Counted from the stretch's first letter, positions 1-28,097 are shown. The stretch is 30,823 nt of DNA from Campylobacteraceae bacterium (GCA_031266555.1 JAISAU010000015.1:1-30823); one strand, 5' to 3'. Notes: generated by a model from the sequence alone, not told the origin. A program made the numbers and translations.

Positions 1-175
1 CGCTAACGCTCCTCGCAATGACGAAAATTTTTCAAACTTATATATTCAATTCCTACATGTAAGACATTTTCACACTTATAGTTTGCTATGCAAACTTCGT
101 TTGCTCGCAATGACGAAATTACAATTCTTTGTCGTTATGAACTAAACGTGGCAATCCACTTTTTCATCATTGTGA
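1..175. repeat. Two degenerate, oppositely oriented copies of a ~35-nt box with core CTCGCAATGACG / CGTCATTGCGAG, plus a TACATGTAA motif at 54-62. The window starts inside the first copy.
   Basis: cgctaacgctcctcgcaatgacg (1-23) matches the box at 1650-1683 and 1812-1845. gtcgttatgaactaaacgtggcaatcc (~132-160) matches the inverted copy gtcattgcgagcgaagcgcggcaatcc at 1697-1730. Confidence 0.5.
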
Positions 176-259
176 ATAATTTGTATTGTTACATGCAAGG
201 TATAAGCAAATAGAGTTACAAAAAGCAGAATATAAATTATTCGTATTTGTATCGTTATA

Positions 260-350
260 TGTAAAGCTTGGATTGCTTCGTCGCTAATGCTTCAAGCTCA
301 TGACGGAAAGAGCGGAGCGACTATACGCCGCTCCTGTCGCTCTATCTGTT
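260..350 (-). repeat. 3' flank module of paralog copy 1: a TATATGTAAAG motif, a diverged GGATTGCTTCGTCGCTAA box, and a GC-rich hairpin (AGAGC..GGAGCGG-N9-CCGCTCC..GCTCT) directly after the stop codon. It may act as a terminator.
   Basis: The same module recurs at 1801-1899 after copy 2 and as a hairpin-only version at 3815-3872 after copy 3. The stem complementarity is visible in the sequence; the downstream U-tract is weak. Confidence 0.5.
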
Positions 351-351
351 T

Positions 352-1218
352 TCACACATAGCTGCTAACCACAAATGTTAAGCCATTTATATATGCTTTA
401 CCATCGCCAGTACCATCGTTACCTATTACATTTATAGTAACTCCTTGCGGCATCTCTTGATTGCCATAGTGAAGATAAGTAATAAATACGCGAGTTATTT
501 CCGTGCCGTTTATATCTACTACAGGAGGGTAAAACATTGCTCCAGATTTAAAATCTTTATTAGATTTTTGCATTATAGTGGTATATTGTATGCCATTTAT
601 GGAATATAAGACGTTAATTATACCGTATCCGCTCCAATTGGGCACTGAAGGTGTTAATTTATAGCTAAAATTTATAGAGCTATTAATATCAACGGTATAA
701 TTTTCTAATGTAAATAAGTCTGCAGCTTTTATAGTTTTTTTAAATAGCGTAATCAACATCCGACAAGTTCCCATAGGATCATCTTCTGGTGTAAGACTAT
801 AATATTGCAACGAACCTCCATTATTTTTGCCTGTAAGAGATTGCAAAAAAGAGCTTGAAAATATTTGCTCCATTACTTGCTTTCCGCCGTTTCTATTATT
901 ATCAACAAAATCCAAAGCATGCGCCAAGGTTTGCCCTGCAGTACCTACAAACACAGCTGCATAATTATTGTTTATATCGTAAGGATCATCTGTATCTGTT
1001 CTTATCTCAAACATGATATTGACATAAACATAATCGAACATACTCCAGTCTATATCTGTCAAATCAGGATTCATATTTTGCTCAAGCTCTAATATAACCT
1101 CGTTAAGAGGTAATTCCTCGCCATCTAATTCAACCTCCCTGAACATATTATTGATTATTGTGTAATCCTCAATAAGCTTTTCAAAACTCATCGTACCGTC
1201 ACAACATAAATTTCTCAT
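352..1218 (-). CDS. Paralog 1 of a tandem three-member family of unknown function. It has conserved N- and C-termini, a variable core and no signal peptide.
   Basis: 288-aa ORF. Shares MRNLCC[DN]GTMSFEKLIE[DN]Y, HALDF[VI]DNNRNGGKQVM, ITLFKK, NYTVDINSS, PP[VI]VDINGTEI and the C-terminal NTGDGKAYINGLTF[VI]V..YV blocks with the ORFs at 1900-2760 and 3873-4748. AAGGAG-type RBS (ggagacaagacgATG). Confidence 0.85.
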   Translation of the reverse strand: MRNLCCDGTMSFEKLIEDYTIINNMFREVELDGEELPLNEVILELEQNMNPDLTDIDWSMFDYVYVNIMFEIRTDTDDPYDINNNYAAVFVGTAGQTLAHALDFVDNNRNGGKQVMEQIFSSSFLQSLTGKNNGGSLQYYSLTPEDDPMGTCRMLITLFKKTIKAADLFTLENYTVDINSSINFSYKLTPSVPNWSGYGIINVLYSINGIQYTTIMQKSNKDFKSGAMFYPPVVDINGTEITRVFITYLHYGNQEMPQGVTINVIGNDGTGDGKAYINGLTFVVSSYV

Positions 1219-1563
1219 CGTCTTGTCTCCTTGTTATTTATAAATACATTAGGCTTAGCTTGTTATAGCATTTACCGCCACTTACCGACATCGTTTTATT
1301 TATCTTGCTTTGTTTTTTATGTAGGATTTGACAAAGTTTCAGATAATCCGACACTCTCGTTGGCTTGCCGAGTTGTGAGTTATTTGTTTATTGTAAAAGT
1401 TATGTTGTTTTATCCAATGTATTTGTACCTCCGAGACTAAGGTTAAGAGATTTATAACTCTTTTTTTACATTATATTTATAGGATACTCTTTAATTTCTT
1501 AAAATACTCTTTTGTTTTTATTGGCTTATTTTGTAAATGAATGCAAAAATATGTTACATGTAG
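1219..1563 (-). promoter_or_regulatory. Conserved leader/promoter region of paralog 1. It contains a TACATGTAG motif (~1554-1563), a direct repeat ATACTCTT-N13-ATACTCTT (~1484-1515), a -10-like TATAAAT (~1448-1456) and a ~220-nt putative 5' UTR.
   Basis: The same architecture and many identical sequence blocks are found upstream of copies 2 (2761-3146) and 3 (4749-5234). Confidence 0.45.
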
Positions 1564-1624
1564 TACAGCGAATGACGGCAGAGCATAAAATAATTTTTGA
1601 GATATAAAAGTTGTTTATAACATT

Positions 1625-1745
1625 ACACGTAAAGCGTTTTGTACTTCTGGATTGCTTCGTCGCTAACGCTCCTCACAATGACACAATTATTTTTCGTCAT
1701 TGCGAGCGAAGCGCGGCAATCCACTTCTTTGTCACCGTTATATGT
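1625..1745. repeat. Box repeat pair: a direct copy at 1650-1683 and an inverted copy at 1697-1730, flanked by TACACGTAAAG and TATATGTAAGAC motifs.
   Basis: ggattgcttcgtcgctaacgctcctcacaatgac ... gtcattgcgagcgaagcgcggcaatcc together form a ~80-nt imperfect inverted repeat. Confidence 0.55.
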
Positions 1746-1800
1746 AAGACGTAAACTAGGTCCTGAACTATTAGTGCTTTGGTATAAACGCACAAATAAA

Positions 1801-1899
1801 CGTTACATGTAAAGATGGATTGCTTCGTCGTTAATACTCCTCGCAATGACGGAAGGAGCGGAGCGACTGTAACGCCGCTCCTGTTACTCTATCTATATT
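1801..1899 (-). repeat. 3' flank module of paralog copy 2: TTACATGTAAAG, the box, and a GGAGCGG/CCGCTCC hairpin.
   Basis: Near-identical to 260-350. Confidence 0.55.
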
Positions 1900-2760
1900 T
1901 CACACATAGCCGTCAACTACGAACGTTAAGCCATTTATATATGCTTTACCATCGCCAGTATTATTACCATACACAGCTATGTTAATTCCTTGCGGCATTG
2001 CTCGGTCATCATAGCTGTAAGAAATATATACATTGACTATTTCCGTACCATTTATATCTACTACAGGAGGAGTAAATTCTTTTCCACCAGTAAAATCTTT
2101 ACCAGATTTCCTGGCCATAGAAGTATACTGTACATCATTTATAGAAAATAAAACATTAACTATATTATATCCGTTCCACATTGGTACTGAAGGCGTTAAT
2201 TCATAACTAAAATTTGCAGAACTATTAATATCAACAGTATAATTTCCTACTGGAAATACATCCATAGCATTAATAGGTTTTTTGAACAGTGTTATTGCCA
2301 TAAAGCAATCTCCCGTCGGGTTACTTTCCGGCGAAAAACTATAGTATCTTATTGTGCTACCGCTTTTATTTGCAAGAGCTTGCAAAAAACTGCTTGAATA
2401 GACATTGCTCATCACTTGTTTACCACCATTTCTATTGTTGTCTATAAAGTCAAGTGCGTGACTAAGAATAAAACTTGCATGTGTAGTGGCAACTAATAAA
2501 ACAGCATAATTATCGTCTATATTATAAGATTCGTCTACACTACTCCTAATCCCAATGGCAGCATTTACATACACATAATCAAACATGGTCCAATTAATGC
2601 TTTGTAAATTAGGGTTGATTTTTTGTTCCATTTCTAAAATATACTCATCGAGGTTTATTTCTTCATCATAGTCAAATATTACTTCTGAGTTTTCGACTAT
2701 AGCGTAATTCTCAATAAGTTTTTCAAAACTCATTGTACCGTTACAACATAAATTTCTCAT
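1900..2760 (-). CDS. Paralog 2 of the three-member family.
   Basis: 286-aa ORF with the conserved termini and internal blocks described for 352-1218. Same RBS context. Confidence 0.85.
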   Translation of the reverse strand: MRNLCCNGTMSFEKLIENYAIVENSEVIFDYDEEINLDEYILEMEQKINPNLQSINWTMFDYVYVNAAIGIRSSVDESYNIDDNYAVLLVATTHASFILSHALDFIDNNRNGGKQVMSNVYSSSFLQALANKSGSTIRYYSFSPESNPTGDCFMAITLFKKPINAMDVFPVGNYTVDINSSANFSYELTPSVPMWNGYNIVNVLFSINDVQYTSMARKSGKDFTGGKEFTPPVVDINGTEIVNVYISYSYDDRAMPQGINIAVYGNNTGDGKAYINGLTFVVDGYV

Positions 2761-3146
2761 TGTCTTGTCTCCTTGATTTTTTTAATAAAAAGATTAGGTT
2801 CCGCATATCACAGCATTCACCGCCACTTACCGACATCGTTCTATTTATCTTAGCTTTGTTTTTTCATAACCGTAGTTTTGATTTAACAAAGTTTCAGATA
2901 ATCCGACACTCTTATTGGCTTGCCAAGTTGTGAGTTATGATTTGTTATAGACATTATGTTGTTTTATGTAACGTATCCGCACCTCCGAGATTGAAGTAAA
3001 GTGATTTATAATATTTTCTTATATTATTTGTAGGATACTGCTTCGTCTCTTAAAATATTCTTTTATTTTTTAGTAGTTTATTTATATTTGTTGTTATTTT
3101 TTTAAACTTTTTCCAGCAAAATTGCAAAAGTTATGCTACATGTAGC
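2761..3146 (-). promoter_or_regulatory. Conserved leader/promoter of paralog 2, with CTACATGTAG at 3137-3146.
   Basis: Alignable by eye to 1219-1563 (ccgccacttaccgacatcgtt, cagataatccgacactct, ttggcttgcc, gttgtgagttat, taggatact, gtaaatga, gttacatgtag). Confidence 0.45.
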
Positions 3147-3266
3147 AAATAAATAGCTAAAAACTTGTCAAATTAGATAGCAAATTAGAGTATGTTTCTT
3201 TTTATGTATTGTATAAGAATTTTTAAGTATTTTTTAAATCAGCGGAGTTACAAAAAACAGATGAAT

Positions 3267-3527
3267 TTAATCATATATATTTTTTCTGTGCGCTATTTCC
3301 AAAACTAAAACAATTAACTTGTCGTCTTGAATTTCGCATATCAAACGATAGTCATTTACACGATAACGCCAAAAACCTTTTAAATTACTTGATAATGCTT
3401 TTCCGCGACTTTTTGGATTTTCAAGAGTTTCTAACTCCTCTTTCCACTTTTTAATCGATTTTTGTACTGAATTGTCAAGCTTTGATAATTGCTTTTCTGC
3501 TTTTGGAGTAAACTCTACGCTCGTCAT
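3267..3527 (-). CDS. relE: RelE/ParE-family toxin.
   Basis: 86 aa. The C-terminal YRLICEI...LIVLVLEIAHRKNIY block is the typical RelE/ParE signature. It overlaps the upstream antitoxin by 4 nt. Confidence 0.8.
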   Translation of the reverse strand: MTSVEFTPKAEKQLSKLDNSVQKSIKKWKEELETLENPKSRGKALSSNLKGFWRYRVNDYRLICEIQDDKLIVLVLEIAHRKNIYD

Positions 3528-3745
3528 AAGCCAAGCTTTTTAAAAACTTCGTTAGCAGATATTGATTTTTCTCCGCTATCTTTGAACTCTTTCAAAGCCT
3601 TTACAGCTCTATAGTAATCTTCCAAATCCTCTAAATGCGTACTTATAGCCTCTTTGATGATATGCGCTTTTGAAACTTTTGCCTCTTTGCTGATAGTTGA
3701 CAATCTATCCTCCATATCTTTTGGCAGTCTTATAGATAAAGGCAT
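3524..3745 (-). CDS. relB: RelB/ParD-type ribbon-helix-helix antitoxin.
   Basis: The N-terminus MPLSIRLPKDMEDRLSTIS is an RHH strand-helix. The ORF track begins 2 codons earlier at a TTG; the ATG at 3745 has an AAGGAG RBS 6 nt upstream. Confidence 0.75.
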   Translation of the reverse strand: MPLSIRLPKDMEDRLSTISKEAKVSKAHIIKEAISTHLEDLEDYYRAVKALKEFKDSGEKSISANEVFKKLGL

Positions 3746-3757
3746 AAACAACTCCTT

Positions 3758-3786
3758 AATAATACAATGTATTCGTCATTATACAC
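3758..3786 (-). promoter_or_regulatory. relBE promoter: TG-TATAAT (-10, complement of 3778-3786) and a 13-bp palindrome AATACAATGTATT (3761-3773) between the -10 and the RBS, probably the operator for autorepression.
   Basis: Read directly on the minus strand as agtgTATAATgacgAATACATTGTATTattAAGGAGttgtttATG. Confidence 0.5.
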
Positions 3787-3814
3787 TATTTTTCGCAAAA
3801 CTGTTGCGGCGTTT

Positions 3815-3872
3815 TGAGCTTTTAATAAAGAACGGAGCGGCTATGACACCGCTCCTGTCGCTCTATCCGTTT
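3815..3872 (-). repeat. 3' flank hairpin of paralog copy 3 (GGAGCGG-N-CCGCTCC). The box part is missing.
   Basis: gaacggagcggctatgacaccgctcctgtcgctctatc matches the hairpin portion of 260-350 and 1801-1899. Confidence 0.5.
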
Positions 3873-4748
3873 CTACACATAGCCGTCAACTATGAATGTT
3901 AAGCCATTTATATATGCTTTACCATCGCCTGTATTGTTACCATTTGTATATATAGTAACTCCTTGCGGCCTCGTTTCATCGCTATAGGGGATGTAAGTAA
4001 TATATATGTGTGTTATTTCTGTACCATTTATATCTACTATAGGTGGGTCAAAACTTTTTTCAGCTTCAAAATATTTACCACCAGACTTATGAACCATAGC
4101 ATCATATTGTATGTTATTTATCAAAAATACGACATTAACTGTATTGTATCCGCTCCACGTTGATACAGAAGGTGTTAATTCGTAACTAAAATGTATGCTA
4201 TCATTAATATCAACGGTATAATTTCCTAACCCGAATATATCCGTAACATTTATAGGTTTTTTGAACAATGTTATTGCGAGCCAGCATCGTCCCATCGGAT
4301 TATTTTCCGGAGCGTAACTATAATATTGCAATGAACCTCCTTCGTTTTTGCTTGTACAAGTTCGCAAAAAAGAGCTTGAAAATATTTGCTCCATCACTTG
4401 CTTGCCACCGTTTCGATTATTGTCAACGAAATCTAGAGCATGCGTTAAACCTGATTCTTCTGCAGTACCCAAAAGAACAGCCGCGTAATTGTCGTTTATG
4501 TCGTAAGGATTATCCATATCAGTTCTTATCTCAAATGCAGTATTTATATAAGCATAATCAAACATACCCCAGTCTACGTCTGTCAAGTTAGGATTTATAT
4601 CTTGCTCAAGTTTTAATATCAGCTCGTTAAGATATATTCCCTCATCATCCAAACTTACATTTTCAGTTAAGCTTCCAATAACAACTATCGCATAATCCTC
4701 AATAAGTTTCTCAAAACTCATTGTACCGTCGCAGCATAAATTTCTCAT
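3873..4748 (-). CDS. Paralog 3 of the three-member family.
   Basis: 291-aa ORF with the conserved termini and blocks described for 352-1218. Confidence 0.85.
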   Translation of the reverse strand: MRNLCCDGTMSFEKLIEDYAIVVIGSLTENVSLDDEGIYLNELILKLEQDINPNLTDVDWGMFDYAYINTAFEIRTDMDNPYDINDNYAAVLLGTAEESGLTHALDFVDNNRNGGKQVMEQIFSSSFLRTCTSKNEGGSLQYYSYAPENNPMGRCWLAITLFKKPINVTDIFGLGNYTVDINDSIHFSYELTPSVSTWSGYNTVNVVFLINNIQYDAMVHKSGGKYFEAEKSFDPPIVDINGTEITHIYITYIPYSDETRPQGVTIYTNGNNTGDGKAYINGLTFIVDGYV

Positions 4749-5234
4749 TGTCTTGTCTCCTTGATTATTTAATAAAATATTGGGTTCCGCTCGTTATAGC
4801 GGTCGCCGACACTTACCGACATCGCTCTATTTATCTTGACTTTGTTTTTTGTGACCACAATTAATTTGCAAAGTCTGACTTAACAAAGTTCCAGATAATC
4901 CGACACTCTCGTTGGCTTGCCAAGTTGTGAGTTATTGTTTGTTGTAGACATTATGTTGTTCTATCCAATCTATTCGCACCTCTGAAATTAAAATAAAATA
5001 ATTTATAATTATTTTTTAATTATCTTATTAATATCAGGGTACTCTTTAGTCTCTTAAAATACTCTTGTATTTTTTTCTTAGCTTATATGGATTAGTTACT
5101 ATTATTTGAAATTTTTCTCGTAAATGAGTGCAAAAAATTAGATTATTAAAATATAAAATGGACTATTGTTTATTTTGGATAGCGTTAACAGAATAGATAT
5201 TTTTTTGAATTTGAGGCAAATATGTTACATGTAG
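4749..5234 (-). promoter_or_regulatory. Conserved leader/promoter of paralog 3, with TTACATGTAG at 5225-5234. It is ~90 nt longer than the other two leaders.
   Basis: Shares the same blocks with the two other leaders. Confidence 0.4.
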
Positions 5235-5268
5235 TGCGATAAATAACAATGGAACGCAAAATGATTTT

Positions 5269-5982
5269 TTAAGTTTGAATTTTCAACACGCTAAAAATAT
5301 TGTCGCAAGATTTTACAATTAATTCTTTAGCATTTATAATGGTATTTTCATACTCTTTAGCAGGTTGAATGTATTCTATATCGCGCCTATATTTGCTCAT
5401 GTCAAATGTTTTTAATGCTTTATATATAGTTTTTATATCGTTTTCGTTTATCGCTTCTTGTTTAAGCAATTTATCGAGTATATTTTTATCGTTGTGAATA
5501 GCAACGGCTATATCGGCTATATCTCTTGATTTATTTTGCGAACCTCTATGTACTATTTTCTTTGCCAATATATCTTCTATACTTTCAATATAAATGTTAT
5601 ACTTGAATAACTCTTTCGATGTGTCTACCAAAGGTTTTGATATAAAATCTTGAGCTACTAAAATATCGACTTTTATGTTATCTTTTGTCATAAATCGTAC
5701 ATGATGGTTTAAATCCTCTATGTAATCGTCTGACTTGAAATATCTGCTTTCTTCGAGCCAAAATCTTGGTCTTATGCAATCAAGCACTTGAGGGTCTGTC
5801 GTAAAAATATCTACATCATAGCTTTTTCTATGTTGAAAATAGTATATGGCAAGAGCTGTACCACCTCCGAAACGCAACAGCGATAAATCCTTGTTCGGCA
5901 AAAGCTCTATGCATTCGTCCAAAAAATGATTTAGAGCGTTTATTTGTTCTTTGTATATATTTTTTATCTCACAAATTTGCAT
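5269..5982 (-). CDS. AbiEii/DUF1814-family nucleotidyltransferase, a putative type IV toxin.
   Basis: 237 aa. The N-terminal RFGGGTALAIYYF...RKSYDVDIFT block matches the AbiEii nucleotidyltransferase fold signature (GGTAL plus acidic DxD). Confidence 0.65.
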   Translation of the reverse strand: MQICEIKNIYKEQINALNHFLDECIELLPNKDLSLLRFGGGTALAIYYFQHRKSYDVDIFTTDPQVLDCIRPRFWLEESRYFKSDDYIEDLNHHVRFMTKDNIKVDILVAQDFISKPLVDTSKELFKYNIYIESIEDILAKKIVHRGSQNKSRDIADIAVAIHNDKNILDKLLKQEAINENDIKTIYKALKTFDMSKYRRDIEYIQPAKEYENTIINAKELIVKSCDNIFSVLKIQT

Positions 5983-6205
5983 ATAATACTTTGCTTATCT
6001 GTTTCATAGGTATATTGTGAATTTTTGCAAACGCTTCTATCTCTTGTGGTAAAGCTTCCTCCCTAATTGTATCAACTATGTATTGCTCAATATTATTTTT
6101 AGTTTTTCCATGCAAAAAAATATCCGCTATTTGCTTGCCCGTTAAATGTTTCTTTTTATCACCAATGGAGCAGTTAGCAGTTGCTATAAGCATTGCGTCT
6201 GTCAT
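5969..6205 (-). CDS. Small protein encoded upstream of, and overlapping, the AbiEii-like gene. It is the putative cognate antitoxin but is much shorter than a canonical AbiEi.
   Basis: 78 aa. It overlaps the downstream gene by 14 nt. A promoter sits immediately upstream. Confidence 0.5.
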   Translation of the reverse strand: MTDAMLIATANCSIGDKKKHLTGKQIADIFLHGKTKNNIEQYIVDTIREEALPQEIEAFAKIHNIPMKQISKVLYANL

Positions 6206-26660: not shown

Positions 26661-26856
26661 AGTCAAACTTAAAAGATTTATAACCAAATTTCAAGTTATG
26701 CTCCAATAACGAGCTTTTTAATTGCGAAAAGACAATGTGCTTGCAAACGCTACATGTATGAGTTTACAATACGCTCTTTGTGCAACGCTAAGAAAATAGG
26801 CAATTTGCGTAAAAAAAACGAGTTAAATTTTGGTGTTTGATTAAATTTAATAACAG

Positions 26857-26917
26857 TGGTATCCCGAACGCGTGAGATTAGGAATCTGACGCTCTATCCA
26901 GCTTGAGCTATCGGGAC
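26857..26917 (-). pseudogene. Decayed partial copy of the tRNA-Arg(CCT) gene at 29218-29294. About 19 nt of the T-arm are deleted and there is 1 nt inserted, and it carries the same 5' and 3' flanking sequence as the intact gene.
   Basis: tggtatcccgaacgcg[deletion]agattaggaatctgacgctctatccagcTtgagctatcgggac plus the flank acaaaatataaaTgtaaattatgccaaaa, compared with the intact copy and its flank. Confidence 0.7.
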
Positions 26918-26935
26918 AAAATATAAATGTAAATT

Positions 26936-27770
26936 ATGCCAAAATCCGGCATCCGCTATCAACGGTATATGGATTTGAATACGATTCAAAATTGGCTTTA
27001 AAATATATCCACGAAATCGCTTCATCCGGCGTTTTGGAGCGGCTTAGTATCAAAAAGGATAGATACGATACTATCCGCTAAGGAAGCGTAATTTTAGGCT
27101 TTTATCAGAAAGCTTAACGCAAAAAAATCATTACAAGCGGCGTTGGTATCAGAGAGGGAGTATATTTAAGCGATATATTGCATTCAAGTGGCACAAAATT
27201 TCCACATAATTTTGACCCTAGCATTGAACTGTTAAAAGATAAATTTAGCACAGACAAAAAGAAAGGCCGATTTTCGCATGCCATATAGAGAAGCTCTTTT
27301 GGGAGTTAAAGCCGTTGCACAAGCTTAATGACTGTTTTTTACGCCCGCTCATAGTAGCGGCAAAACTTGAGAGTATCGGAAGAAATCTTAGTTTTATAAA
27401 GTTCACTTACACAGCGCCTATTTTGTCTTAAATAACTTAAATTACGGATTTACTCACCAAGAAAAGACACTAGTCTCCACAATAATCAAGTTTTACAATA
27501 AAAAAGTCGCGCAAAACGATATATTTTTATATGAGAAACTATTGCCGCTGTATAGGAATTAAATTGGTTGATTTTTATCTTTTCTTTGGTAAAGATTTTC
27601 CAAGACAGAGGTGCGATAAAACCACTCTTTTTTGTGTTTTCCAATGGCTTTTTGAGTATCAAAAGCACAGAGTCTTTATATCTGACAAAAGAGCCGGTGA
27701 AAAAGATATTTAAACCGGAGGTATTCTCTATCGTTATTGATGATAATCAACAGCTTTCAATTCCCAACGG
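26936..27770 (+). pseudogene. Ppx/GppA-family (exopolyphosphatase / pppGpp phosphohydrolase) gene remnant. It is 5'-truncated and broken by stop codons and frameshifts.
   Basis: Translated fragments: ...RYDTIR*, GVGIREGVYLSDIL (the REG motif at the end of the Ppx actin-like domain), EKLFWELKPLHKL..LIVAAKLESIGRNLSF (the HD-domain region, with H-D replaced by E-S), GFTHQEKTLVSTIIKFYNKK. They lie in three different frames. Confidence 0.55.
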
Positions 27771-28097
27771 ATAATATTATAACAGCGCTATAACCGATAT
27801 AAATAAACAACACAAAAGATATTATATTAAGAAACAAACTTTTTTATATAAAAAATAGACAAAAATGGCGGATATAAAAATATATACAAAACTTATCAAG
27901 TAATAAAATATTCCCGCCAATATGACTATACTAAAACAGTAATCTCCCGTTAAATTATAAAGCAAAGTTGAAATCAACATTAAAAATAGAGGCACAATAA
28001 AAATGCTGTTATATTTCTGTAAAATATGACTCTTTTTTCTATCTCTTCTTGCGCATTATTCTGTCTTTCCGACGTATTTTTGTCTATTTTGCACAAT

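What the first reader, a model, noticed from the sequence alone, without database searches (positions are those of the whole stretch)
1219..1563. Long conserved 5' leaders (also 2761-3146 and 4749-5234) with a direct-repeat element and a TACATGTAG box upstream of each paralog
Each paralog is preceded by ~330-480 nt that is alignable across all three copies. Reading on the minus strand, the order is: a TACATGTAG box; then ~50 nt downstream a direct repeat (A/G)TACTCTT-N13-ATACTCTT, which is two helical turns apart and typical of response-regulator-type activator sites; then a TATAAAT -10-like element; then a ~220-nt conserved untranslated region ending in an AAGGAGACAAGACG-ATG RBS. Conserving a long UTR across diverging paralogs argues for a cis-acting RNA element (a thermosensor, riboswitch-like structure or sRNA target) or for a homologous-recombination 5' box, comparable to the conserved 5' regions of sapA in C. 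fetus as I recall them.
Basis: partly seen in the sequence, partly recalled or inferred. Interest (0 to 1): 0.6.

Follow-up and report, generated by a model that had tools for sequence, protein, structure and literature searches.

The report
Conserved leader before three paralogous genes
Three tandem copies of a virus-derived gene in an uncultured Campylobacter-like bacterium each carry the same ~300-base non-coding stretch in front; selection keeps it, so it is probably a shared control region, but three copies cannot show whether it acts as folded RNA or as protein-binding DNA.

Summary
The conserved leaders are real. About 300 nt upstream of each paralog aligns: 1219-1519, 2761-3070 and 4749-5074, minus strand. 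Two cores are 89-95% identical in every pairwise comparison, while synonymous sites of the genes differ at 48-66% (dS 0.8-1.6). This points to purifying selection on the leader itself rather than recent duplication.

Corrections to the finding:
- Alignability stops at the direct repeat, not at 330-480 nt.
- On the sense strand the repeat reads AAGAGTAT-N12-AAGAGTAT, a 20-bp period.
- Its distance to TATAAAT varies (34/31/38 nt).
- TACATGTA is a contig-wide intergenic palindrome (20 sites, about 0.5 expected). It is not in register in the three leaders.

New features:
- The two cores are partly complementary and form a 17-bp interrupted hairpin with a variable apex.
- There is a palindrome TTGGC-AA-GCCAA.
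- There is a tandem 10-bp repeat TGKCGGTAAR x2, with a third copy 60/70/81 nt upstream.

There is no Rfam match, no covariation and no copy outside this contig.

The paralogs are C-domain-only relatives of a ~410-aa protein encoded in small prophage-like elements related to PM2.

Best reading: a shared promoter plus a long structured 5' UTR. A purely DNA-level operator region is a close rival. The sapA-like recombination box is not supported.

The parts
1219..1519 (-). Conserved leader of paralog 1 (repeat block to ATG)
   Evidence: Alignment and identity profile; nhmmer hit E 2.9e-114
2761..3070 (-). Conserved leader of paralog 2
   Evidence: nhmmer E 1.5e-125
4749..5074 (-). Conserved leader of paralog 3
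   Evidence: nhmmer E 9.7e-131
1484..1511 (-). Direct repeat AAGAGTAT-N12-AAGAGTAT, copy 1. Copies 2 and 3 are at 3035-3062 and 5039-5066. It can also be read as three AAGAR pentamers 11 and 9 nt apart.
   Evidence: Block identity is 82-85% pairwise. It is unique to the three leaders.
1450..1456 (-). TATAAAT -10-like box, copy 1. Copies 2 and 3 are at 3004-3010 and 5001-5007.
   Evidence: Invariant in alignments A1/A3; positions. No TSS evidence.
1325..1384 (-). Core 1 (60 nt, 92-93% identical in each pair). It contains the palindrome T(T/C)GGC-AA-GCCAA (1360-1371), the motif GTGTCGGATTAT (1343-1354) and the sigma-70-like TTGGCA-N17-GATTAT. Copies 2 and 3 are at 2880-2939 and 4877-4936.
   Evidence: (D11)
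1290..1352 (-). Predicted long interrupted hairpin or inverted repeat (GUCG/CGAU + UUAUCU/AGAUAA + CUUUGUU/AACAAAG) with a variable apex of 16, 25 and 36 nt. Copies 2 and 3 are at 2835-2907 and 4821-4904.
   Evidence: RNAalifold; single folds; column-shuffle z -2.8; all stem pairs invariant
1271..1290 (-). Tandem 10-bp direct repeat TGTCGGTAAG|TGGCGGTAAA (core 2). Copies 2 and 3 are at 2816-2835 and 4802-4821.
   Evidence: TGKCGG-N4-TGKCGG gives 3 hits, all in the leaders, against 0.11 expected. Core 2 is 89-95% identical.
1219..1232 (-). Shine-Dalgarno AAGGAGAC and its spacer to the ATG, copy 1. Copies 2 and 3 are at 2761-2774 and 4749-4762.
   Evidence: The first 20 codons have dN 0.02-0.06 against dS 0.4-2.5, so the first ATG is the one used.
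1555..1562 (.). TACATGTA palindrome upstream of leader 1 (also at 3137-3144 and 5226-5233). It is a member of a contig-wide intergenic motif and not part of the conserved leader.
352..1218 (-). Paralog 1 (288 aa). Paralogs 2 and 3 are at 1900-2760 and 3873-4748. They are C-domain-only relatives of a ~410-aa protein of prophage-like elements.

Best explanation
Each paralog is an independent transcription unit. All three have kept, under purifying selection, the same ~300-nt control region.

The most likely layout is as follows. A block of phased AAGAG(TAT) repeats serves as the binding site for a transcription activator, and a TATAAAT-type -10 box lies 31-38 nt downstream of it. Transcription from there gives an A-rich 5' UTR of about 225-245 nt. 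In this UTR a small TTGGC/GCCAA hairpin is followed by a long interrupted hairpin with an apex of variable length. Then come a tandem GKCGGTAAR repeat and a strong Shine-Dalgarno sequence. The structured UTR would be the docking site for one trans-acting factor (a protein or an sRNA) that sets translation or stability of all three mRNAs together.

What is shown: the conservation beyond neutral, the motifs and their positions, and the complementarity of the two cores.

What is inferred: the transcription start, that the hairpin forms in RNA, and the existence and nature of the trans-acting factors.
For: - Conservation beyond neutral. Cores are 89-95% identical and the whole leader 67-95%, while the CDS body is 66-74% identical with pS 0.48-0.66 and dS 0.8-1.6.
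- Divergence is equal in all three pairs (star-like). This fits constraint rather than pairwise gene conversion.
- The two most conserved blocks are complementary to each other and flank the only indel-rich segment, which is the pattern expected of a stem with a variable apex.
- Consensus-fold z-scores are -2.0 for the whole leader, -2.4 for the core and -2.8 for the hairpin. The antisense whole leader gives only -0.75.
- The insert in copy 2 is itself self-complementary (15/1000 shuffles).
- Composition is strand-asymmetric: A 38-42% against T 23-26% on the sense strand only. The AT skew is +0.19 to +0.30 in the leader, against +0.03 to +0.07 in the CDS and about 0 further upstream.
- The repeat block is unique to the three leaders. 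Its 12-bp spacer, close to a notional -35, matches the layout of LytTR-type activator sites (PMC6193735).
- Each unit also has a conserved terminator-like hairpin after the stop codon (D16/D20, 62).
Against: - There are no TSS data.
- The repeat-to-TATAAAT spacing varies (34, 31, 38 nt).
- The region upstream of TATAAAT is A-rich. From my own knowledge, C. jejuni promoters are T-rich there.
- There is no covariation: every pair in the main stem is invariant.
- Single-sequence z-scores are weak: -0.35, -1.75 and +0.62 for whole leaders. The duplex gives p about 0.05.
- The hairpin signal is equally strong on the antisense strand (z -3.2), so it could be a DNA inverted repeat.
- No conserved helix sequesters the SD.
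- There is no Rfam family.
- The leader is absent from the closest relative, L001, and from all other family loci.
- No regulator gene was found in the contig.
Confidence: 0.4

Rival explanations
1. The conserved cores act as DNA, not RNA. They would be operator or activator sites for one or more DNA-binding proteins around a promoter closer to the gene. Candidate promoters are TTGGCA-N17-GATTAT inside core 1, or a start downstream of the tandem TGKCGGTAAR repeat. In this reading the 'long UTR' is mostly untranscribed control DNA, or only about 115-145 nt of it is transcribed.
For: - Core 1 holds a perfect 5+5 palindrome, TTGGC-AA-GCCAA.
- A tandem direct repeat with a 10-bp period is unique to the leaders. 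That period is typical of winged-helix response-regulator dimers (own knowledge).
- A third GTCGG copy lies 60, 70 and 81 nt upstream. The increments of 10 and 11 nt are one helical turn each.
- A sigma-70-like match scoring 9/12 lies in copies 2 and 3.
- The hairpin signal is the same on both strands.
- The only full-length relative outside a prophage (P0004 in L001) has a response-regulator gene directly upstream.
Against: - The strong A>T asymmetry of the leader has no explanation at the DNA level.
- The inserted apex sequence is self-complementary in copy 2.
- The helical-turn coincidence rests on two increments only (my rough estimate is p about 0.04).
- Promoter-like matches are no more frequent than in shuffled sequence: 26 found against 28 expected.
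- The -35 of the internal promoter is degraded in copy 1 (TCGGCA).
- No regulator gene lies in the contig.
Confidence: 0.3
2. The conserved 5' leader and the conserved 3' end are homology boxes. They would let the variable middle of the genes be exchanged by homologous recombination or gene conversion. This would be a cassette system like sapA of C. fetus or pilS/pilE, possibly feeding a full-length prophage gene elsewhere in the genome.
For: - The unit architecture is a conserved 5' end (300 nt plus 60 nt of CDS) and a conserved 3' end (last 75 nt at 83-89%, plus 45 nt downstream) around a diverged centre.
- The family elsewhere has a conserved N-domain and a variable C-domain.
- The paralogs start exactly at that domain boundary.
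- pS is lower in the last 25 codons, 0.18-0.33.
Against: - All three copies have the same orientation, and each has its own RBS, start codon and promoter-like and terminator-like elements.
- The leader is non-coding with stops in all frames, so it cannot guide in-frame exchange with a full-length gene.
- Identity is equal in all three pairs, with no long identical tracts in any pair.
- Synonymous sites of the first 20 codons are diverged.
- There is no N-domain or recombinase in the contig.
- The leader has no match in the prophage-like loci.
Confidence: 0.1
3. The similarity is a neutral leftover of recent tandem duplication, with no function of its own.
For: The three units are tandem and clearly derive from duplication.
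Against: Synonymous sites of the same units are near saturation (dS 0.8-1.6), while the leader cores are 89-95% identical. The DNA just upstream of the repeat block has already decayed to 39-56% identity.
Confidence: 0.04
4. The leader is conserved because it encodes small peptides. Candidates are MSxTNxNSQLGKPxRVSDYLxLC, or MSVSGG... of 17-30 aa, acting as a leader peptide or uORF.
For: Both ORFs can be read in some copies. The MSVSGG ORF ends about 21 nt before the main ATG in copies 1 and 3.
Against: - The first ORF has no start codon in copy 1.
- Neither ORF has a Shine-Dalgarno sequence.
- Frames and lengths differ between copies, and the sequences diverge right after the nucleotide-conserved core.
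Confidence: 0.04

Closest known systems
5' conserved region of the sapA homologues of Campylobacter fetus
   Same: Several paralogs clustered in a Campylobacter-type genome share a conserved 5' end that includes non-coding sequence just upstream of the ATG.
   Different: As I recall it, the sap conserved box begins only tens of nt upstream and runs hundreds of nt into the ORF. The homologues lack their own promoters and lie in both orientations around one invertible promoter. Here the conservation is about 300 nt non-coding plus only 60 nt coding. All copies are co-oriented, and each has promoter-, RBS- and terminator-like elements. There is no sign of homogenisation.
LytTR-family activator sites (paired direct repeats separated by about 12 bp just upstream of the -35; PMC6193735; AgrA, PMC4227749)
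   Same: Two 8-9-nt direct repeats with a 12-nt spacer lie a few nt upstream of where a -35 would sit in copy 1. The block is conserved in all three leaders.
   Different: The repeat sequence differs from the LytTR consensus. The spacing to the -10 varies by up to 7 nt. No LytTR or other regulator gene was found in the contig. Binding has not been tested.
Tandem 10-11-bp direct-repeat boxes of OmpR/PhoB-type response regulators (own knowledge)
   Same: TGTCGGTAAG|TGGCGGTAAA is a head-to-tail repeat with a 10-bp period. A third copy lies whole helical turns away.
   Different: No cognate regulator is known, and the position relative to any mapped promoter is unknown. The same bases are also part of the predicted RNA fold.
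Long structured 5' UTR cis-regulators (riboswitches, RNA thermometers, T-boxes, CsrA-bound leaders such as C. jejuni flaA)
   Same: It is a long leader conserved above neutral, with hairpins that have variable apices, GGA motifs (GUCGGAUUA, AAGGAGA) and a sense-strand compositional bias.
   Different: There is no Rfam hit at gathering or permissive thresholds. There is no covariation, no conserved SD-sequestering helix and no terminator/antiterminator pair. The downstream gene is not metabolic.
Integron attC sites in chromosomal cassette arrays
   Same: It is an imperfect inverted repeat with a variable-length centre, repeated next to each gene of an array that is interspersed with toxin-antitoxin modules (ParE/RHH, AbiEii).
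   Different: It lies 5' of the ORF at a fixed distance from the RBS. The GTT/AAC triplets sit at the apical end of the stem, not at its base. There is no RYYYAAC...GTTRRRY frame and no integrase in the contig. The 'cassettes' are paralogs of one gene.

Membership tests
Any Rfam 15 RNA family (riboswitch, T-box, thermometer, sRNA) | Covariance-model score at or above the family's gathering threshold | tested here: not met
   At gathering thresholds only two tRNAs are found, elsewhere in the window. At E<=10 on 1-5600 there are only three sub-threshold snoRNA chance hits, none in a leader.
Structured cis-regulatory RNA (generic) | Compensatory base changes that support the helices | tested here: inconclusive
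   One of 47 pairs has a double change. The covariation score is 0.099 against 0.094 in shuffles (252/500 at least as high), and the main stem pairs are all invariant. Three sequences cannot decide the question.
Structured cis-regulatory RNA (generic) | Consensus fold more stable than for shuffled alignments | tested here: met
   z -2.0 (6/300) for the whole leader, -2.4 for the core and -2.8 (2/300) for the hairpin. The hairpin is equally stable on the antisense strand.
sapA-type recombination 5' box | The conserved box extends far into the ORF and is kept identical among copies by recombination | tested here: not met
   Only the first 60 nt of the CDS are conserved, at 87-90%. pS in the first 20 codons is 0.31-0.72, and divergence is equal in all pairs.
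sapA-type recombination 5' box | Promoterless homologues in both orientations around a single invertible promoter | tested here: not met
   All three copies are on the minus strand, and each has its own repeat block, TATAAAT, SD and terminator-like hairpin. Promoter activity itself was not tested.
LytTR-type activator site | Two direct repeats of about 9 bp separated by 11-13 bp, close to the -35 | tested here: met
   AAGAGTAT-N12-AAGAGTAT; literature layout from PMC6193735. The spacing to the -10 varies from 31 to 38 nt.
LytTR-type activator site | A cognate LytTR-domain regulator and demonstrated binding | not testable with these tools
   No LytTR or response-regulator domain was found in the window ORFs scanned. 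The rest of the genome is not available.
Integron attC | R''/R' core sites (RYYYAAC ... GTTRRRY) at the base of the stem, a position 3' of the cassette ORF, and an IntI integrase nearby | tested here: not met
   Read directly from the sequence: the GTT/AAC triplets are at the apical end of the stem, and the element lies 72-158 nt upstream of the ATG. No integrase domain is in the contig.
Sigma-54 promoter | GG-N10-GC (TGGCAC-N5-TTGC) | tested here: not met
   TTGGCAAGCCAACGAG has GG but no GC at the required spacing (read).
~410-aa protein family of PM2-like prophage elements (applies to the downstream genes) | A conserved ~125-aa N-domain followed by a variable ~285-aa C-domain, in an element with a P2_C capsid gene, a P-loop ATPase and an integrase | tested here: not met
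   The C-domain is homologous: profile E 3e-148 to 1e-10 across 10 members. The N-domain is absent from the paralogs and from the whole contig, and no other element gene is present. The paralogs are therefore truncated, stand-alone derivatives. The capsid-gene hit is PF25513 at 28.9 bits against a cut-off of 25.

The most novel reading that the evidence does not exclude
The leader is a previously undescribed structured RNA switch. It would co-regulate three domesticated receptor-binding (C-terminal) domains of a PM2-like phage vertex protein inside a toxin-antitoxin-rich island. For example, it might turn them on in response to infection or prophage induction, so that they act as decoys or as alternative host-range modules.
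Probability: 0.12. Interest if true: 0.6.

Novelty: new member of a known kind. Interest (0 to 1): 0.33.

Why it matters
If the leader is a functional RNA or operator module, it marks three phage-derived genes as one regulon in an uncultured Campylobacteraceae lineage. It would also give a handle (repeat block, hairpin, tandem repeat) for finding the regulator.

The wider point of interest is the gene family. The variable C-terminal domain of a prophage structural protein has been cut off exactly at the domain boundary, given its own start codon and a long conserved leader, triplicated, and kept under purifying selection (dN/dS about 0.2-0.3) next to toxin-antitoxin modules. That pattern suggests host domestication of a phage receptor-binding module.

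The element is known from a single contig only, so the generality and impact are limited at present.

Tried and rejected
- **Rfam.** Searches at gathering and permissive thresholds found nothing in the leaders.
- **More leader copies.** The 18-mer AGAGTGTCGGATTATCTG in genome contigs and metagenome contigs gave 20 hits, all chance, with unrelated flanks and no nhmmer match. Two 15-mers in viral contigs gave 131 loci with no nhmmer match. blastn against the phage and plasmid collections found nothing. An nhmmer and motif search of all loci carrying family members found nothing. Covariation analysis on more sequences was therefore impossible.
- **Leader as a decayed N-domain coding region.** There are stops in all frames. 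An N-domain HMM against the six-frame translation gives no hit, best E 1.3.
- **Conserved antisense ORF.** Plus-strand translations are broken by stops and not conserved.
- **Trans-pairing partner.** Only 8-11-nt chance matches to the cores occur elsewhere in the window.
- **Other known elements.** An intrinsic terminator or attenuator in the leader, attC, a sigma-54 promoter and a T-box were all rejected on sequence features.

Full report
**Source and layout.** The window is an entire 30,823-nt contig of an uncultured Campylobacteraceae MAG (NCBI tags LBJ88_*). Three paralogs lie on the minus strand at 352-1218, 1900-2760 and 3873-4748 (288, 286 and 291 aa). A RHH/ParE pair separates paralogs 3 and 2, and an AbiEii-type gene precedes paralog 3. 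The rest of the contig is housekeeping: a Fer4/CCG protein, HemN, OTCase, ALAD, RibA, GidB, Alr and others. No response regulator or other obvious transcription factor was found in the ORFs scanned.

- The three upstream regions align. A profile of that alignment finds exactly three copies in the contig, E 1e-114 to 1e-131.
- A segment-wise comparison gives these pairwise identities:
  - repeat block, 82-85%;
  - repeat to -10, 57-70% with indels;
  - -10 to core 1, 76-80%;
  - core 1 (60 nt), 92-93%;
  - an indel-rich segment;
  - core 2 (37 nt), 89-95%;
  - 3' leader, 67-72%;
  - RBS, 94-100%;
  - first 60 nt of the CDS, 87-90%;
  - CDS body, 66-74%;
  - last 75 nt, 83-89%;
  - 45 nt downstream (a terminator-like hairpin), 73-90%.
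- Upstream of the repeat block identity is 39-56% with many gaps. The alignable leader is therefore about 300 nt (1219-1519, 2761-3070, 4749-5074), not 330-480 nt.
- On the sense strand the repeat reads AAGAGTAT-N12-AAGAGTA(T/C), a period of 20.
- The repeat's distance to TATAAAT is 34, 31 and 38 nt.
- The TACATGTA palindrome is 45, about 80 and about 165 nt upstream of the repeat. It occurs at 20 sites in the contig against about 0.5 expected. Seventeen of these are intergenic and several form triplets. It is a genome-wide motif, not a paralog box.

**Is the conservation more than shared ancestry?**
- Nei-Gojobori estimates between the paralogs give pS 0.48-0.66 (dS 0.8-1.6) in the body of the genes, with dN/dS about 0.2-0.3. 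The genes are therefore old, functional duplicates.
- The first 20 codons have dN 0.02-0.06 but pS 0.31-0.72. They are translated, so the first ATG with its AAGGAG is the true start, and they are not homogenised.
- Against this background, leader cores that are 89-95% identical, and equally so in all three pairs, indicate purifying selection on the nucleotides. They do not fit recent duplication or pairwise gene conversion.
- The leader has stops in every frame, and its small ORFs are inconsistent between copies. The opposite strand has no conserved ORF either.

**Anatomy found here.**
- Core 1 contains the palindrome TTGGC-AA-GCCAA (TCGGC in copy 1), the motif GTGTCGGATTAT and a sigma-70-like TTGGCA-N17-GATTAT.
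- Core 2 contains a tandem 10-bp repeat, TGTCGGTAAG|TGGCGGTAAA. The pattern TGKCGG-N4-TGKCGG occurs only in the three leaders, against 0.11 expected.
- The two cores are partly complementary. RNAalifold and the single-sequence folds agree on an interrupted 17-bp hairpin (GUCG/CGAU, UUAUCU/AGAUAA, CUUUGUU/AACAAAG) that encloses the indel-rich segment as its apex of 16, 25 and 36 nt.
- Statistical support is modest.
  - Against column-shuffled alignments, the consensus energy z-score is -2.0 for the whole leader, -2.4 for the core and -2.8 for the hairpin. The antisense whole leader gives -0.75, but the antisense hairpin gives -3.2.
  - The core1/core2 duplex is reached by 46/1000 shuffles.
  - Single-leader z-scores are -0.35, -1.75 and +0.62.
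  - The apex insert of copy 2 is self-complementary (15/1000) but that of copy 3 is not significantly so (227/1000).
- Covariation is absent, because all pairs of the main stem are invariant.
- The distance from GTCGGATTAT to the tandem repeat grows from 60 to 70 to 81 nt. That is one helical turn per step, which is what a DNA-phasing model would predict.
- The sense strand of the leader is strongly A-rich (AT skew +0.19 to +0.30, against +0.03 to +0.07 in the CDS and about 0 further upstream). This fits a transcribed, strand-specific element.

**Comparative evidence.**
- No Rfam family matches.
- No other copy of the leader was found in the GTDB species genomes, JGI metagenome contigs, IMG/VR, phage records or plasmids, within the limits of exact-word or blastn searches.
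- The closest relative of the genes is P0004 (43% identical) in another Campylobacteraceae MAG. It sits in the syntenic island next to the same Fer4/CCG-HemN block, has no such leader, and has a response-regulator gene directly upstream.

**What the genes are.**
- An exhaustive profile search found only 10 family members. The typical member is about 410 aa, with a conserved ~125-aa N-domain and a variable ~285-aa C-domain.
- The window paralogs are the C-domain alone, starting exactly at the domain boundary. No N-domain is encoded anywhere in the contig.
- Full-length members lie in ~10-kb elements of otherwise orphan genes.
  - One of these elements (L022) carries an integrase.
  - They carry a P-loop ATPase candidate (sub-threshold hits only) and a ~320-aa protein that matches Pfam PF25513, 'Viral coat protein P2 C-terminal domain' (28.9 and 25.3 bits against a cut-off of 25).
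  - They therefore look like PM2-like double-jelly-roll prophages.
- I infer that the family is a virion vertex or receptor-binding protein. This is not proven.
- The window and L001 share no other gene with these elements.

**Interpretation.**
- The best-supported reading (confidence about 0.4) is a shared control region duplicated with the gene and kept by selection. It would comprise an activator site (the phased AAGAG repeats), a promoter, and a long A-rich 5' UTR whose hairpin and repeats bind a common trans-acting factor.
- A close rival (about 0.3) is that the cores work as DNA operators around a promoter nearer to the gene. With three copies and no transcript data I cannot separate these two.
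- The recombination-box idea (about 0.1) is disfavoured by the co-orientation of the copies, their autonomous expression signals, the star-like divergence and the non-coding nature of the box.
- A neutral leftover and small-peptide coding are each unlikely (about 0.04).
- The thermosensor and riboswitch suggestions have no specific support. No conserved helix masks the SD, and no known aptamer matches.

**Verdict.** This is a real, selectively maintained, lineage-restricted leader of unknown mechanism. It is a new example of a familiar kind of element: a shared cis-regulatory region of paralogs. It is of moderate interest, mainly because of what it precedes.

Noticed in passing
window, 20 sites, e.g. 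54, 1555, 1804, 3137, 5226, 6352/6380/6422, 16352/16384/16419, 17585, 25660/25711, 26751, 29462, 30785: The palindrome TACATGTA (often YTACATGTAR) occurs 20 times against about 0.5 expected. Seventeen sites are intergenic, covering 11 of 19 intergenic regions, sometimes as triplets 28-42 nt apart. It is also enriched in the related MAG locus L001 (4 sites in 16 kb) but not in the prophage-like loci. Its function is unknown; it could be a global regulator site, an uptake or repeat element, or something else.
   Followed up: partly
window 1-32, 100-118, 269-303, 1648-1692, 1689-1734, 1816-1860: A short repeat family, GTCATTGCGAGGAGCGTTAGCGACGAAGCAATCC, occurs in both orientations and clusters in the 3' flanks of paralogs 1 and 2. 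A TTACATGTAA box often lies about 10 nt away. It may be a REP/MITE-like element involved in the duplications or in the contig break.
   Followed up: partly
window 352-4748; loci L022 8001-9239, L024 3619-4854, L025 6520-7956, L026 4599-5852, L001 5018-6247: The paralogs are C-domain-only derivatives of a ~410-aa protein family with 10 known members, the named ones all from Campylobacteraceae MAGs. The full-length genes sit in ~10-kb prophage-like elements with a PF25513 (P2_C) capsid gene and a P-loop ATPase candidate; one element (L022) carries an integrase. These look like an undescribed PM2-like double-jelly-roll prophage group of Campylobacteraceae.
   Followed up: partly
window 1-351: The contig ends 351 nt after paralog 1, inside repeat-rich sequence. 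The paralog array may continue beyond the assembly break.
   Followed up: no
window 3873-4748 and 1900-2760: The public gene calls for two of the paralogs (282 and 277 aa) start at the internal Met10. Low dN with high dS in codons 1-20, together with the AAGGAG 8 nt before the first ATG, indicates that the longer ORFs are correct.
   Followed up: yes
window 3267-3751 and 5269-6205: A RHH/ParE toxin-antitoxin pair, and an AbiEii-type nucleotidyltransferase with a 78-aa upstream partner, alternate with the paralogs. The syntenic island in L001 carries RelB/YafQ and Abi_C. This is a variable, defence-island-like hotspot downstream of the Fer4/CCG-HemN block.
   Followed up: partly
window 26700-28097: This is a 1.4-kb stretch with no ORF longer than 68 aa and no Rfam match. 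It may be a decayed gene or an unannotated non-coding region.
   Followed up: no
L001 3669-4358: A response regulator (a REC domain plus a RepL-like winged-helix C-terminus) and a 46-aa ORF lie directly upstream of the full-length relative P0004. This is a candidate regulator type for the family.
   Followed up: no
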